A DNA stretch of 64,000 nt from an uncultured Acidimicrobiales bacterium (GTDB lineage Bacteria > Actinomycetota > Acidimicrobiia > Acidimicrobiales > SHLQ01): assembly GCA_938023735.1 (NCBI GenBank), contig CALJDK010000025.1, forward strand, positions 33,057-97,056, given 5' to 3'. The notes beneath the pieces are model-generated. The model was not told the origin of the DNA. It made no database searches and worked only from the letters and a program-made list of their open reading frames with translations. Shown here piece after piece: positions 4,412 through 37,811 of this stretch. The translations under genes and the position numbers were made by a program. Every line of letters begins with the position of its first letter. The stretch's first letter is position 1.

Positions 4412-4869
4412 TACGAAACCTCTCGCTCAACTTCTGGCAGCTCAAACTCATCGTCGACAAGCTCAACGACGGCGTCGTCAACCTCAGGTATTCCATCGAT
4501 GCTCTCTGGATCAATGCTCTCTGGATCAATGCTGTTTGAGTGAATGCTGTTTGAGTGAATGCCGTCTGAGTGAATGCTCTCCTCGGCAACACTGCTGGCC
4601 ACGGCTTCGGGTTGTCGGCTCTCGGCATAGGCCGCTTTGCGGGCCTGCTTCTTCGAGTGCGCTCGAGCACGCCGTTTGGGGTCGGTGTGGATCCAGTAGA
4701 AAATCGTCAAGATGAGCAGCCCAATGGCGATTCCCATCAGACTCGACTTCACGATCTGCACCGTATCGTTGGCTTCGGCGCCGTTGGGAACGGCCTGGGC
4801 GGCAACAGGCGCCGCCAGCACGAGCGCGCTGACAAGCATCGCCGCCGTTACTCCCACGCCACGCCTGAC
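4411..4869 (-). CDS. membrane-anchored protein with an acidic tail of pentapeptide repeats (start uncertain)
   Basis: Signal-like AAMLVSALVLAAPVAAQA, one TM segment (GIAIGLLILTIFYWI), and a repeat tail IHSDGIHSNSIHSNSIDPESIDPESIDG. The track ORF extends to 5106 but overlaps nei, so a GTG at 4869 or the ATG at 4839 is more plausible. Confidence 0.55.
   Translation of the reverse strand, partial: VRRGVGVTAAMLVSALVLAAPVAAQAVPNGAEANDTVQIVKSSLMGIAIGLLILTIFYWIHTDPKRRARAHSKKQARKAAYAESRQPEAVASSVAEESIHSDGIHSNSIHSNSIDPESIDPESIDGIPEVDDAVVELVDDEFELPEVEREVS
4499..4573. repeat. five tandem 15-bp repeats inside the CDS
   Basis: ATGCTCTCTGGATCA x2, ATGCTGTTTGAGTGA x2 and ATGCCGTCTGAGTGA, read directly. They are in-frame, 5 codons per unit. 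Confidence 0.9.
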
Positions 4870-35078: not shown

Positions 35079-35771
35079 ATGACGTCGCACGGCGGCAGTC
35101 CGGGCCGCCTCTACGGAAGGCGGCGTTCGTCGCTCACCGCGCTCATCTGGCCGCTGCCCGAGAGCGAAATTCTGGTTCCTGGCGAAAAGGTGTACTACCG
35201 GGAACGAGCCCACTGGACATCGCTCTTTCCCTATTTGGTCGAAACGGTTTCGATCATCATTTTGCTGATGGTCGGACTCGAAGGAATGCCGCAAGGTTGG
35301 GGCGCTTCCGCCGGCGTCATTGTCATCGGGTCGGTCATTGTGGTTTTCCGGTTTCTGCAAGCCCGCGATTGGAACTGGACCCAAGGCATCTTCTTGGCCT
35401 GCATCGCACTCGTGGCGTTTGCCATGACGTCGGGATCCTCGACCGGTTTGGCCGTTTTGGCCGGGTTTGCCGCCATGATTCGCCTGGTAGCCCATTACCT
35501 TCGCTGGGCGTTCTACGAGGACCGCTACATCACAAATCGACGGGTCCTCGAAACCACCGGCTTCTTCGGCTCGCGCATCTCGTCCATGCCTTTGGGGCGC
35601 GTGACCGATATCAGTCTCACGCGAAGCGTCTTTGGTGAGGTGTTCGATTTCGGCACGCTTCGTGTGGAAAGCGCCGGTCAGGATCAGGCCCTCGGCACTA
35701 TCCCCTACCTCGTAGAACCCGAAATCTTCCACGAAACCATCGTCCTACTGTCAACCGAAACCCACGCGTAA
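35079..35771 (+). CDS. membrane-flanked bacterial PH domain (bPH_2/YdbT-like) protein
   Basis: ERAHWTSLFPYLV, two TM segments, then YITNRRVLETTGFFGSRISSMPLGRVTDISLTRSVFGEVFDFGTLRVES. Confidence 0.8.
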   Translation: MTSHGGSPGRLYGRRRSSLTALIWPLPESEILVPGEKVYYRERAHWTSLFPYLVETVSIIILLMVGLEGMPQGWGASAGVIVIGSVIVVFRFLQARDWNWTQGIFLACIALVAFAMTSGSSTGLAVLAGFAAMIRLVAHYLRWAFYEDRYITNRRVLETTGFFGSRISSMPLGRVTDISLTRSVFGEVFDFGTLRVESAGQDQALGTIPYLVEPEIFHETIVLLSTETHA

Positions 35772-35776
35772 TTTCT

Positions 35777-35953
35777 GGCGTTCCCTGGGCACGCAGCCCA
35801 ACAGGTCTCGGGCTCCAGGCTGGCGCTCTGTCTTCGGCGTTCCCTGGGCACGCAGCCCAACGGGTCTCGGGCTCCAGGCTGGCGCTCTGTCTTCGGCGTT
35901 CCCTGGGCACGCAACCCAACAGGTCTCACCCTCCAGGCTGGCGCCTTCCGGGC
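35777..35953. repeat. three tandem 59-bp repeats (units start at 35777, 35836 and 35895)
   Basis: Units 1 and 2 differ at 1 of 59 positions; unit 3 is more diverged. Each begins GGCGTTCCCTGGGCACGC. A partial fourth copy lies at 36099-36114. Confidence 0.9.
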
Positions 35954-36000
35954 TACGACCTCGACAACACTCAAACGCTGACATCCAGCCGTCCGGACCC

Positions 36001-36090
36001 GGTACCTGGCACCAAAACCCCACTTCGGTGCCAGGTACCAAACACCCAAACGGTGCCAGGTACCAAACACCCAAAAAGGTTCCAGGCACC
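36001..36090. repeat. four spaced copies of a 13-bp pseudo-palindrome GGTNCCWGGNACC
   Basis: GGTACCTGGCACC (36001-13), GGTGCCAGGTACC (36027-39 and 36052-64; exact reverse complement of the first) and GGTTCCAGGCACC (36078-90). Spacing is 25-26 bp. Confidence 0.85.
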
Positions 36091-36189
36091 GAATCTCTGG
36101 CGTTCCCTGGGCAACACAACTGGATGGGGTTCACGGGTTGGTTGGGAGATTTTTGGAAGGGGTTCCAAATATGGGGCAGGATGTAGTTC

Positions 36190-37137
36190 ATGCTCACTGG
36201 TATTGATCGCTTGAACTACGAAAAGGAAGCCGTTGCTCCTTATGTGGGCGGTATTGGCTGGCGGACGGTGTTCAACGCCATCTGGCCGATCGCTGGGTGG
36301 ATCGCCACTATCGCTGCGTACCAGACCGGCCGCATACCCCTTTGGGGCGCGTTCATCCTGTCCATGGTGTTACTGCAAGCCCTGTACATGCCGGTACACG
36401 AATCGGTGCACAAGACGGTTTCGGGTGGCCGGTCGTCACTGGCCTGGGCCGACAAACTCATTGGTTCGGTGGCCGGATGGCTGATGTTGGTGAGCTTTCG
36501 CGATCACACCATCACCCACCTCATCCATCACACCCACGCCAACGACGAGTACGACCCCGATGTACTCAACTCGAAGGGTCGGCCCATCGACCTCGTGATC
36601 CGCTCGATCATCGGCCTCGTGCTCTACCCGCTCGGTCCCATCATCGCTGCCGTGCCCGCCGTTGGCCGAATGGTTCCCAAAGCCATCGCCGGTCGGCTGC
36701 AACTTTCAGCGAAGCTTCGTGGCCCCGAGGCGGTGACCGCTGCACGACGAGCGGCCACGTCGCATCTTGCTGTGCTCATCATCGGCACGGTGATTGGTTT
36801 CGCCGACCTGGTGTGGCTGGTCTGGTACGTGCCGGTATGGATGGGCCGAATCTGGCTATCGTTTGTGTTCGGCTGGCTCCCCCATCATCCGCATGGCGAA
36901 GTGGGTCGCTATCGAGACACCCGGGTGTTCACCTTCCCGGCCAGCACGCTATTAATCCGCGGGCACGACCATCACCTCCTCCACCACATGTTTCCCAGGG
37001 TCCCCCACTACTCGCTCAAACGACTCTGGGCCGATATGGGGCCGCACCTGATCGAGCAGGGCGCACGCATCGAAGGCAGAGCCGCCCGCCAGCACGGTCT
37101 TACTCCGGGAACCGCCGCGACGCCGGCAACCCAGTGA
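36190..37137 (+). CDS. membrane fatty-acid desaturase / hydroxylase family protein
   Basis: Three His boxes: HESVHK, HLIHHTH and HHLLHHMFPRVPH. Confidence 0.85.
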   Translation: MLTGIDRLNYEKEAVAPYVGGIGWRTVFNAIWPIAGWIATIAAYQTGRIPLWGAFILSMVLLQALYMPVHESVHKTVSGGRSSLAWADKLIGSVAGWLMLVSFRDHTITHLIHHTHANDEYDPDVLNSKGRPIDLVIRSIIGLVLYPLGPIIAAVPAVGRMVPKAIAGRLQLSAKLRGPEAVTAARRAATSHLAVLIIGTVIGFADLVWLVWYVPVWMGRIWLSFVFGWLPHHPHGEVGRYRDTRVFTFPASTLLIRGHDHHLLHHMFPRVPHYSLKRLWADMGPHLIEQGARIEGRAARQHGLTPGTAATPATQ

Positions 37138-37811
37138 GCGGCGCCCGCCCAAGCACATCAGCGGCGTCGCGTCGCCGGCGAGAACAAATCATTGAAGCCG
37201 CGCGTGTACTACTTCGTGAATCGTCGGCCGACAAGATTCTGGTTGCCGACATCGCCGAACAAGCAAGCGTTTCCGTGGCAACCATTTACAACCTGGTTGG
37301 CCAACGCGACCGCGTGCTTCTAGCCGTTCTCGACCACACCGCCAGCACTATTCGCGACCAGCTCAAACACGATGAAGCGACGCTTGGCATCGACCGATGC
37401 CTTGCCGTGATCGCCACCGCATGCGATGCGATTCTGGCCGACCCGTCGGTCCACCGACACGCGTTGGCGGCCCTCGGCGAGGTGTCGCAGGGCCAGTGGC
37501 TCGACGAGGGCCTGTACGAAACCATCGAAGCTTCGATCATCGATGCCATCGAGCAACGTGAACTGGGCTCAGAAGTCGCAGCATCCAGCACCGCCGTCGC
37601 CGTGCAACTTGGTTTCCGTGGTGCCTTGATGAGCTGGTCGTTTGGCCAACTCAACGATGATGAACTTATCCAAACATCGCAGCTCACCGCGGCGCTCACG
37701 CTGGCTGCAACCGCACGCCCGTCGCACCGCCGCCGTCTCCATGCGCTGGCGAGCCAACCGTCCGAAATCAACGACATACGCCAACTACCCACAAAGAGGT
37801 CCAACCAATGA
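37134..37811 (+). CDS. TetR-family transcriptional regulator
   Basis: The GTG overlaps the desaturase stop (GTGA). HTH ILVADIAEQASVSVATIYNLVGQRD. The track shows it only as the tail of a 504-aa out-of-frame artefact (36297..37811). Confidence 0.8.
   Translation: MSGARPSTSAASRRRREQIIEAARVLLRESSADKILVADIAEQASVSVATIYNLVGQRDRVLLAVLDHTASTIRDQLKHDEATLGIDRCLAVIATACDAILADPSVHRHALAALGEVSQGQWLDEGLYETIEASIIDAIEQRELGSEVAASSTAVAVQLGFRGALMSWSFGQLNDDELIQTSQLTAALTLAATARPSHRRRLHALASQPSEINDIRQLPTKRSNQ

What the first reader, a model, noticed from the sequence alone, without database searches (positions are those of the whole stretch)
35777..36114. Repeat-filled 420-bp leader upstream of the desaturase-TetR operon: 59-bp tandem units plus an array of 13-bp pseudo-palindromes
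The gap between the PH-domain gene stop (35771) and the desaturase ATG (36190) is almost entirely repeats. (a) Three head-to-tail 59-bp units start at 35777, 35836 and 35895. Units 1 and 2 differ at 1 of 59 positions. A partial fourth copy lies at 36099-36114. Each contains the pseudo-palindrome GTTCCCTGGGCAC. (b) Four copies of GGTNCCWGGNACC lie at 36001, 36027, 36052 and 36078, spaced 25-26 bp apart. The first is the exact reverse complement of the second and third, so copies 1 and 2 could also form a 13-bp hairpin. Eight dyad-symmetric sites directly upstream of an operon whose second gene is a TetR regulator suggest a multi-operator control region. Alternatives are a REP/MITE-like repeat cluster or a structured RNA. 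Near-identity of the first two units implies recent duplication and possible copy-number variation.
Basis: seen in the sequence. Interest (0 to 1): 0.6.

Follow-up and report, generated by a model that had tools for sequence, protein, structure and literature searches.

The report
REP-like repeat array, not TetR operators
The repeats upstream of the desaturase-TetR operon are one copy of a genome-wide family of about 58 hairpin-forming repeat arrays that also flank the genome's single REP-type tyrosine transposase gene, so they are selfish or structural DNA and not a local operator array.

Summary
Three 59-bp tandem units, a partial fourth copy and four GGTNCCWGGNACC sites spaced 25-26 bp apart all sit at the stated coordinates.

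- The 13-mer occurs 209 times in this 4.68-Mb Acidimicrobiia genome, against about 5 expected.
- The sites form about 58 intergenic arrays, mostly just after gene 3' ends.
- Orthologous desaturase-TetR loci in other genomes lack the motif.

The genome has a single Y1 (HUH) transposase gene. It is 211 aa, carries HUH and RYIHRNP motifs, and its model best matches E. coli TnpA-REP (4ER8). The same arrays flank it on both sides. Homologous transposase genes in nine other genomes of the family, and on one metagenome contig, are flanked by species-specific variants of the 13-mer. These variants keep their dyad symmetry through compensatory changes. Where I checked (G001, G044, G019, G022, G042), they are also dispersed through their genomes.

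The array is therefore a REP/BIME-like element of a REP-RAYT system. Its architecture is unusual: it is polar, has 25-26-bp phasing and lacks a GTAG tag.

The 59-bp unit belongs to a low-copy companion repeat (4 loci) that has been triplicated here.

A better TetR operator candidate is the unique palindrome TTTGGAAggggTTCCAAA at 36152-36169, which is conserved in one ortholog.

The parts
35079..35771 (+). Upstream gene with a bacterial PH domain (bPH_2). Its TAA stop lies 5 nt before the repeats.
   Evidence: Pfam PF03703, E 2.9e-11. recA-PH synteny is conserved in all five same-genus genomes.
35777..35835 (+). 59-bp unit, copy 1. It is the start of the 'type-C head' of the element.
   Evidence: TRF. 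blastn finds relatives only at C136 (x3), C117 (x2) and C60 (x1).
35836..35894 (+). 59-bp unit, copy 2. It is 58/59 identical to copy 1, which indicates a local tandem duplication.
35895..36000 (+). 59-bp unit, copy 3, continuing into the unique part of the roughly 106-nt type-C head that leads into the 13-mer array.
   Evidence: 91-93% identical over 85-86 nt to two sites on contig C136 that also precede 13-mer arrays.
36001..36039 (+). REP-like 'founder' hairpin: GGTACCTGGCACC, a 13-nt loop, then GGTGCCAGGTACC. The stem is a perfect 13 bp.
   Evidence: The same hairpin opens about 45 arrays genome-wide.
36052..36090 (+). Units 3 and 4 of the array (GGTGCCAGGTACC and GGTTCCAGGCACC). They form an imperfect second hairpin and show the typical head-to-tail drift of unit variants.
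   Evidence: Position-specific unit variants across 62 contiguous runs.
36099..36113 (+). Truncated start of a second type-C head.
   Evidence: Same junction as in C136, where 13-mer, 8 nt, then GGCGTT(T/C)CCTGGGCA begins a full second composite unit.
36152..36169 (.). TTTGGAAggggTTCCAAA, an 18-bp palindrome 21 nt upstream of the desaturase ATG. It is a better candidate for the TetR operator and is not part of the repeat family.
   Evidence: Unique in the genome. Conserved as TTTGGAAgttcTTCTAAA at the same position in ortholog locus L001, which keeps the desaturase->TetR order. Binding was not tested.
36190..37811 (+). Desaturase (36190-37137) and overlapping TetR-like gene (37134-37811), downstream of the element.
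   Evidence: PF00487, E 8.5e-30. TetR_N E 1.7e-4, which is below the Pfam gathering score.

Best explanation
The 13-mer array at 36001-36090 is one copy of a dispersed REP/BIME-like repeat family. The family belongs to a REP-RAYT system of this Acidimicrobiia genome.

Basic module. The module is a roughly 39-nt hairpin made of two mutually complementary 13-mers centred on CCWGG, separated by a variable 12-13-nt loop. The loop has A/T-rich ends and a G/C-rich middle.

Array structure. In this genome the hairpin is preceded by one of three conserved 'heads'. It is followed by one to five further 25/26-bp units that drift from GGTGCC..GGTACC to GGTTCC..GGCACC. This gives a polar array.

Proposed mechanism (inferred). 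The single-copy 211-aa HUH/Tyr transposase, located outside the window at G000:C131:23273-23908, is flanked by such arrays. It presumably recognises the hairpin in single-stranded DNA, as E. coli TnpA-REP and IS200/IS605 TnpA do, and has spread or maintained the repeats.

The 59-bp units. They are the first part of the rare 'type-C' head (4 loci). Here that part has been tandemly triplicated, probably by replication slippage or unequal recombination.

The focal copy. It sits in the usual place for the family, just after a gene's TAA stop. It happens to lie upstream of the desaturase-TetR operon.

Shown versus inferred:
- Shown: dispersal, intergenic and 3'-end location, flanking of the RAYT-like gene, co-variation across genomes, hairpin potential, and the protein's fold and catalytic motifs.
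- Inferred: that the transposase binds, cleaves or mobilises these repeats, and any effect on transcription of the neighbouring genes.
For: Dispersal:
- There are 209 exact 13-mers. I estimate about 5 expected from base composition; the 11-mer core occurs 278 times against 56 expected.
- 245 of the 278 core sites lie in 58 arrays of 2-7 units, and 170 of 187 spacings are 25 or 26 bp.
- Isolated sites are at chance level, and 24 of 33 lie inside genes.

Location:
- 53 of 58 arrays are fully intergenic.
- The head side abuts a co-oriented gene's 3' end in 42 of 55 cases.
- 26 arrays lie between convergent genes and only 5 between divergent genes.

Shared architecture:
- Heads, founder hairpin, unit gradient and spacers were compared across all arrays.

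The transposase gene:
- The genome has only one PF01797 hit, at C131:23306-23641. Arrays lie 93 bp upstream and 22 nt downstream of the gene.

The protein:
- H60, H62 and Y119 (in RYIHRNPL..G) are invariant in the alignment.
- The only NCBIfam hit is REP_Tyr_transpos.
- The AF2 model has pLDDT 91.9.
- The best PDB fold match is 4ER8, TnpA-REP bound to a REP hairpin (E 7e-7). It ranks ahead of the IS608, IS200 and ISDra2 transposases.

Co-variation across genomes:
- Homologous genes (48-55% identity) in G019, G042, G049, G022, G048, G044, G050, G047 and G001 are flanked on both sides by GGNNCCWGGNNCC variants.
- The variants are GGTGCC/GGCACC, GGTACC/GGTACC, GGGGCC/GGCCCC and GGAACC/GGTTCC. The two halves change together.
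- These variants are dispersed only in their own genomes.
- An 80%-identical homolog on a metagenome contig has the same neighbour gene (MazG) and the same 13-mers.
- Genomes with two or more 13-mer pairs are 8 of 15 that carry this transposase clade and 0 of 27 that lack it (Fisher p 5e-5).

Hairpin versus dimer site:
- 189 of 209 13-mers are not self-symmetric, yet 22 of 24 unit-1/unit-2 pairs are exact reverse complements.
Against:
- The protein scores 49.9 bits against NCBIfam's REP_Tyr_transpos cut-off of 80. Sequence searches against the PDB are not significant.
- The repeats lack the GTAG tag of classical REPs. CGTC occurs only in the type-B heads.
- After the first inverted pair the units are direct repeats. 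This is unlike alternating BIMEs or REPIN doublets.
- Both arrays that flank the transposase gene have the same orientation.
- Five genomes with a transposase of this clade (G045, G018, G023, G041, G007) show no 13-mer beside it.
- No empty or filled site pair was obtained, so mobility itself was not shown.
- Gene context rests on a crude ORF caller that I wrote.
Confidence: 0.85

Rival explanations
1. The eight dyad-symmetric sites are a multi-operator control region for the TetR encoded second in the downstream operon.
For: The sites are dyad-symmetric and lie upstream of an operon that contains a TetR-like gene.
Against: - The same sites occur in about 58 arrays next to unrelated genes, mostly at 3' ends.
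- Orthologous desaturase-TetR loci lack them.
- 189 of 209 sites are not self-symmetric.
- A unique palindrome, conserved in one ortholog, lies nearer the start codon.
- In same-genus genomes the gene after the PH gene differs, and other repeats or none occupy the site.
Confidence: 0.03
2. Whatever their origin, the arrays have been taken over by the host. They would act as 3'-end modules, meaning transcription terminators, mRNA 3' stabilisers or insulators. Here the array would separate the PH-domain gene from the desaturase operon. This reading is compatible with the main explanation.
For: - The arrays sit strongly at gene 3' ends and between convergent genes.
- The hairpins are stable on both strands.
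- Flanking genes end in TAA far more often than the genome average: 26 of 42 against 24%, p 2e-7.
- REPs are reported to lie mainly downstream of coding regions and to be proposed as RNA elements (PMC3733652).
Against: - No T-tract terminator consensus and no Rfam match were found.
- No transcript data are available.
- The location bias could simply reflect where insertions are tolerated, or a target preference.
Confidence: 0.3
3. The 13-mers are double-stranded binding sites for a nucleoid-associated or global DNA-binding protein, phased every 2.5 helical turns. On this reading they are not single-strand hairpin substrates of the transposase.
For: The 25/26-bp phasing is regular and the spacers have A/T-rich ends. 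The near-palindromic core is typical of dimer sites.
Against: - Most 13-mers are asymmetric while their partner units are exact reverse complements.
- The repeats flank and co-vary with a Y1 transposase gene.
- The family has a patchy, species-specific distribution: 10 of 42 genomes, and none of five same-genus genomes.
Confidence: 0.08
4. The threefold 59-bp tandem is an assembly artefact of a repeat-rich metagenome-derived genome.
For: The genome is in 211 contigs. About eight arrays lie at contig ends, so these repeats do break the assembly.
Against: - The units differ from each other: 1 mismatch between units 1 and 2, and unit 3 diverges.
- The locus is internal to a 169-kb contig.
- C136 and C117 also carry multiple copies.
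Confidence: 0.07

Closest known systems
REP / REPIN-RAYT systems ('REPtrons') of Gammaproteobacteria, such as E. coli TnpA-REP with REP/BIME and the Pseudomonas fluorescens REPINs
   Same: - Short palindromic modules with conserved arms and a highly variable spacer.
- Dozens of extragenic copies, mostly downstream of genes.
- A single-copy HUH/Tyr Y1 transposase gene flanked by the repeats.
- Repeat sequence and transposase co-vary between species.
- The best structural match of the protein is 4ER8 (PMC2817692, PMC5581495, bioRxiv 10.1101/2021.07.10.451892).
   Different: - The host is an Acidimicrobiia bacterium. The four REP/RAYT papers I checked do not mention Actinobacteria in their main text.
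- There is no GTAG tag.
- The module is about 39 nt rather than about 100 nt.
- The arrays are polar, with one inverted pair followed by direct 25/26-bp units that degenerate towards the tail.
- The protein is 211 aa and scores below NCBIfam's REP_Tyr_transpos cut-off.
BIMEs (bacterial interspersed mosaic elements) of E. coli
   Same: Regularly spaced clusters of REP units in intergenic regions, with a variable unit number per locus.
   Different: BIMEs alternate REP orientation (PMC2817692 abstract). Here only the first unit is inverted.
TIRYT/'TIRtron' elements with GGGGWSAS motifs (Di Nocera et al. 2013, PMC3733652)
   Same: RAYT-like genes flanked by repeats other than GTAG REPs. Related Y1 genes in G023 and G008 are flanked by GGGGTCAGACC-type repeats.
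   Different: The focal family has short phased 13-mers, not long terminal inverted repeats.
TetR-family operator palindromes
   Same: Dyad symmetry upstream of a TetR-containing operon.
   Different: Operators are locus-specific and conserved with the regulator. These sites are genome-wide and absent from the orthologous loci.

Membership tests
REP / REPIN-RAYT system | Short (about 20-40 nt) imperfect palindrome able to form a stem-loop | tested here: met
   39-nt module with a 13-bp perfect stem. DNA fold z -5.7 and -5.9. About 45 such hairpins genome-wide. 22 of 24 unit pairs are exact reverse complements.
REP / REPIN-RAYT system | High-copy, dispersed, extragenic | tested here: met
   209 13-mers in 58 arrays on about 50 contigs. 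53 of 58 arrays are fully intergenic.
REP / REPIN-RAYT system | The repeats flank a (usually single-copy) RAYT gene | tested here: met
   There is one PF01797 gene in the genome, with arrays on both sides. The same holds in 9 other genomes and on one metagenome contig.
REP / REPIN-RAYT system | The RAYT protein has the HUH motif, a catalytic Tyr and the RAYT-specific NP(L/V)(R/K)xG motif next to the Tyr | tested here: inconclusive
   - HUH (H60, H62), Y119, N123 and P124 are invariant. The motif reads NPLDLG, with D in place of R/K (motif from PMC2817692).
- The best fold match is 4ER8.
- NCBIfam REP_Tyr_transpos scores 49.9 bits against a cut-off of 80.
REP / REPIN-RAYT system | Conserved GTAG (or CGTC) tetranucleotide at one end of the REP | tested here: not met
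   No GTAG lies next to the hairpin in any head type. CGTC is present only in type-B heads (..aaagCGTCcGG..) and 9 nt upstream of the hairpin in the focal copy.
REP / REPIN-RAYT system | The RAYT binds and cleaves its REP as single-stranded DNA | not testable with these tools
   Needs purified protein and oligonucleotides.
BIME | REPs regularly spaced in alternating orientation | tested here: not met
   Spacing is regular at 25/26 bp. However, only unit 1 is inverted and units 2 onward are direct.
TetR operator array | Sites specific to the regulated locus and conserved at orthologous loci | tested here: not met
   The sites are genome-wide. They are absent from L001-L006.
CRISPR array | Repeats of at least about 21 bp, unique spacers of at least about 25 bp, one or a few loci, cas genes | tested here: not met
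   The repeats are 13 bp and the spacers 12-13 nt with constrained composition. There are 58 loci of 2-7 units. I did not search for cas genes.
MITE (DDE-transposase derived) | Terminal inverted repeats and target-site duplication | tested here: not met
   The head (ttcgcccaaatgaactttt..) and tail (GGTTCCAGGCACC plus short tandem repeats) are unrelated. No direct duplication was seen at the ends. This was checked by eye on the 58 arrays.

The most novel reading that the evidence does not exclude
The arrays might be built in a polar way, not as mere decaying copies. New 25/26-bp modules, each with a fresh 12-13-nt spacer, would be added next to the conserved head and founder hairpin by the Y1 transposase, while older units degenerate towards the tail. 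On this reading each array is an ordered record of successive single-strand insertion events. The species-specific 13-mers would then be a natural specificity code for HUH enzymes.
Probability: 0.07. Interest if true: 0.7.

Novelty: new variant of a known kind. Interest (0 to 1): 0.35.

Why it matters
For annotation, the finding removes a false regulatory lead. It points instead to a specific 18-bp palindrome as the testable TetR operator.

More broadly, it documents a REP-RAYT system in uncultured Acidimicrobiia. The REP/RAYT papers I checked do not mention this phylum.

The REP module here is very compact and centred on CCWGG, and its two halves change together with the transposase across at least ten genomes. 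That set of natural protein-hairpin pairs could be used to study how Y1 HUH enzymes read their DNA hairpins.

The family also explains several contig breaks in this assembly.

Its tight association with TAA stop codons raises a testable question: does it reflect a target preference or a role at mRNA 3' ends?

Tried and rejected
- Rfam scan of 35500-36400 gave only sub-threshold miRNA-like hairpin hits.
- Sigma-70 promoter and intrinsic-terminator consensus scans found nothing in the gap.
- phmmer of the transposase against PDB sequences found nothing. The profile search gave only E 0.16 to ISDra2 TnpA. The fold search was needed to place the protein.
- A search for the desaturase ortholog in same-genus genomes, intended as an empty-site test, found none. 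The only hit was a 37%-identical paralog in G005. I therefore used the conserved recA-PH neighbourhood instead. It shows different or no repeats after the PH gene, but it does not give a clean empty site.
- The 59-bp unit as a structured RNA or DNA was rejected, with z about -1.3 on both strands.
- A CRISPR-like reading was rejected on repeat and spacer sizes and on the number of loci.
- A perfect-inverted-repeat scan of other RAYT loci was uninformative, and one script failed on a file path. The repeat finder then revealed the flanking repeats.
There is therefore no read-level check of copy number and no RNA evidence.

Full report
**1.

The gap between the PH-domain gene (35079-35771, TAA stop) and the desaturase ATG (36190) is 418 bp.
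- Tandem Repeats Finder reports a 59-bp period with 2.8 copies at 35777-35944 (score 301) and a 25/26-bp period at 36000-36090.
- GGCGTTCCCTGGGCA occurs exactly at 35777, 35836, 35895 and 36099.
- GGTNCCWGGNACC occurs exactly at 36001, 36027, 36052 and 36078.
- Units 1 and 2 differ at one position.
- Copy 1 of the 13-mer is the exact reverse complement of copies 2 and 3.
- Folded as DNA, copies 1-2 give a perfect 13-bp hairpin and copies 3-4 an imperfect one. The z-scores are -5.7 and -5.9 on the two strands.
- The 59-bp unit has no significant structure.

**2. The 13-mer is a genome-wide family**

The window is C25:33057-97056 of a 4.68-Mb, 61.5% G+C assembly in 211 contigs. Desaturase relatives place it in the Acidimicrobiia.

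The whole genome holds 209 exact GGTNCCWGGNACC sites. The 11-mer core occurs 278 times against 56 expected from base composition. Of these, 245 lie in 58 arrays of 2-7 units, and 170 of 187 spacings are 25 or 26 bp. The 33 isolated core sites behave like chance, and 24 of them lie inside genes.

Other first-stage notes on this genome had seen the same 13-mer in other windows. I confirmed this independently with the whole-genome scan.

**3. Anatomy of the family**

When all arrays are oriented the same way they share a polar plan.
- **Head.** There are three types:
  - Type A is ..ttcgcccaaatgaactttt(a/g)TACCTGGCACC (about 31 copies).
  - Type B is ..ccacccaaagcgtccGGTACCTGGCACC.
  - Type C is about 106 nt long.
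- **Founder hairpin.** This is GGTACCTGGCACC, a loop, then GGTGCCAGGTACC.
- **Further units.** One to five units follow. They drift from GGTGCCAGGTACC through GGTTCCAGGTACC to GGTTCCAGGCACC.
- **Tail.** The tail is made of short tandem repeats.
- **Spacers.** They are 12 nt (102 cases) or 13 nt (68 cases). They have A/T-rich ends and a G/C-rich middle, and almost every one is unique.

The focal copy has the pattern ATC-GAT-GAT-TAC at the three variable positions, which is a typical four-unit array.

Its head is type C. The 59-bp unit is the first part of that head. blastn finds it at only four loci: C25, C136 (three copies, two in tandem composite units with arrays), C117 (two copies beside an array) and C60 (alone).

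In C136 the same junction continues into a full unit. So the 59-bp repeats are a low-copy companion of the 13-mer family that has been triplicated locally.

**4. Location**

I used a crude ORF caller of my own (88% coding).
- 53 of 58 arrays are fully intergenic.
- The head side abuts the 3' end of a co-oriented gene in 42 of 55 cases.
- 26 arrays lie between convergent genes, 11 sit like the focal one (3' end then 5' end), and only 5 lie between divergent genes.

This is the pattern of REP-type elements, not of operators.

**5. Link to a RAYT-like transposase**

A search of 41 genomes with Pfam Y1_Tnp found exactly one match in this genome, at C131:23306-23641. The 211-aa ORF is preceded 93 bp upstream by a four-unit array. 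A six-unit array with a type-A head follows 22 nt after its stop.

The protein:
- It has HUH (GNHFHLLV) and RYIHRNPLDLG. H60, H62, Y119, N123 and P124 are invariant among 27 homologs.
- Its only NCBIfam hit is 'REP-associated tyrosine transposase', at 49.9 bits against a cut-off of 80.
- Sequence searches of the PDB were not significant.
- An AlphaFold model (pLDDT 91.9) best matches 4ER8, the E. coli REP-associated tyrosine transposase bound to a REP hairpin. The match has E 7e-7 and covers all 165 target residues. IS608, IS200 and ISDra2 transposases come next.

**6. Co-variation across genomes**

The 42 held genomes of the same family give the following.
- 13-mer pairs occur in ten genomes: G000 110, G042 56, G049 23, G019 18, G022 12, G048 12, G047 5, G044 2, G050 1 and G056 1. 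The reversed-pattern control gave 0 everywhere. None of the five same-genus genomes has a pair.
- Homologs of the transposase at 48-55% identity are flanked on both sides by species-specific variants:
  - GGTGCCWGGCACC in G019, G042 and G049.
  - GGTACCTGGTACC in G022 and G048.
  - GGGGCCWGGCCCC in G044.
  - GGAACCTGGTACC with GGTACCAGGTTCC in G050.
  - GGAACCTGGCACC in G047.
  - A 13-bp tandem, GGAGCCTGGCACT, in the same-genus genome G001.
- The G044 and G001 variants are dispersed only in their own genomes.
- The two halves of the motif change together. In the two genomes with asymmetric units (G000 and G050) the partner unit is the exact reverse complement.
- In G000, 189 of 209 units are not self-symmetric, yet 22 of 24 unit-1/unit-2 pairs are exact complements. 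This favours inter-unit hairpins over a dimer site on each 13-mer.
- Genomes with two or more pairs are 8 of 15 that carry this transposase clade and 0 of 27 that lack it (p 5e-5).
- An 80%-identical homolog on a metagenome contig has the same MazG neighbour and the same 13-mers on both sides.
- More distant Y1 genes in G023 and G008 are flanked by GGGGTCAGACC-type repeats. These recall the GGGGWSAS 'TIRtrons' of PMC3733652.

**7. The TetR idea**

Relatives of the desaturase (55-73% identity) occur in other Acidimicrobiia MAGs. L001 and L004 keep the desaturase->TetR order, and L002 has a divergent TetR. None has the 13-mer core.

In the five same-genus genomes, recA and the PH gene are syntenic but the desaturase cluster is absent. 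After the PH stop they show the following:
- G001 and G003 have a short spacer and then an msrB-like gene.
- G002 has a different 13-bp tandem repeat (CTAACCCTGCTKC, x6).
- G004 has 82/331-bp repeats and a stretch resembling the 13-mer/59-bp-unit junction.

The site is therefore a hot spot for unrelated repeats and not a conserved control region.

Nearer the start codon lies an 18-bp palindrome, TTTGGAAggggTTCCAAA (36152-36169). It is unique in the genome and recurs as TTTGGAAgttcTTCTAAA at the same position in L001. I propose it as the operator to test.

**8. Mechanism and comparison with known systems**

Established knowledge is that IS200/IS605 TnpA and E. coli TnpA-REP recognise hairpins in single-stranded DNA. 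They cleave with the HUH/Tyr site (PMC2817692, PMC3479197).

By analogy, the 211-aa enzyme probably recognises the 39-nt hairpin. Arrays would grow by repeated insertion next to existing hairpins and by local slippage. Slippage is visible where neighbouring spacers are identical, as at C103, C184 and C144. This step is inferred.

The description of REPINs fits: short palindromes of about 14 bp, conserved, separated by a highly variable spacer, and tied to a single-copy RAYT (bioRxiv 10.1101/2021.07.10.451892).

The differences are:
- no GTAG tag;
- a much shorter module;
- polar arrays of mainly direct units;
- a protein below NCBIfam's cut-off;
- the host phylum.

None of the four REP/RAYT papers I searched mentions Actinobacteria in its main text. 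In Bertels et al. 2017, only RAYT groups 2 and 3 carry abundant flanking repeats.

I therefore file the family as a new variant of a known kind. The focal locus is an ordinary member of it.

**9. Limits**

- The assembly is fragmented. About eight arrays sit at contig ends, so copy numbers are lower bounds.
- Gene context comes from a crude caller.
- Mobility, transcription effects and protein-DNA recognition were not tested.

Noticed in passing
window 36152-36169: An 18-bp palindrome, TTTGGAAggggTTCCAAA, lies 21 nt upstream of the desaturase ATG. It is unique in the genome and conserved as TTTGGAAgttcTTCTAAA at the same position in ortholog locus L001 (3958-3975). It is a candidate for the real TetR operator.
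   Followed up: partly
genome-wide (G000), genes next to the arrays: Genes that abut the arrays end in TAA far more often than average. On the head side the count is 26 of 42, and for tail-side convergent genes 21 of 36, against 24% genome-wide (p 2e-7). The stop is often CTAA, 0-12 nt before a type-A head. This could reflect a target preference, highly expressed genes, or a stop codon supplied by the element. It remains unexplained.
   Followed up: partly
G000 genome: Stop-codon usage is unusual by my crude gene calls: TAG 43%, TGA 33%, TAA 24%.
   Followed up: no
tails of arrays, e.g. G000 C77:48049-48164, C89:25830-25918, C68:31248-31362: Directly after the last 13-mer, many arrays continue with 2-3 short tandem repeats of 6-15 bp. 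These often repeat GGCACC plus the next few bases, for example GGCACCggtttccggtttccggtttt.
   Followed up: no
G001 (same genus), e.g. L024:583-649 and 1324-1468: The homologous RAYT-like gene is flanked by contiguous 13-bp tandem repeats, GGAGCCTGGCACT (x3 and x10). The same tandem is dispersed over more than 20 loci of that genome only. It looks like a spacer-less version of the family.
   Followed up: partly
L058 (G002) and L059 (G004), just after the PH-domain gene stop: The syntenic site carries different repeats in related species. G002 has CTAACCCTGCTKC x6. G004 has 82/331-bp repeats plus ccaCCAGGTACCaacttgctGGCGTTCCCAGGCCACGCAGG, which resembles the junction between the 13-mer and the 59-bp unit in the window.
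   Followed up: partly
G000 C137:3400-3500, C25:116300-116400; L016 (G023), L020 (G008): A second repeat motif, GGGGTCAGACC, has 36 sites on 18 contigs of G000. It occurs next to some 13-mer pairs and flanks other Y1 transposase genes in G023 and G008. It resembles the GGGGWSAS motif of 'TIRtrons' (PMC3733652).
   Followed up: no
homologs of the RAYT-like protein: Many homologs of about 320 aa (Thioalkalivibrio, Nitrospira, Gammaproteobacteria MAGs) carry an extra C-terminal DnaA-type DNA-binding domain (PF08299). The Acidimicrobiia proteins of about 210 aa lack it.
   Followed up: no
window 37134-37811: The 'TetR' ORF matches TetR_N only weakly (E 1.7e-4, 21.7 bits, below the gathering score of 24). 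Homologs sit next to the desaturase in L001, L002 and L004.
   Followed up: partly
window 4495-4581: Two overlapping 15-bp tandem repeats (AATGCTCTCTGGATC and AATGCTGTTTGAGTG types; TRF scores 71-89). I did not examine them.
   Followed up: no
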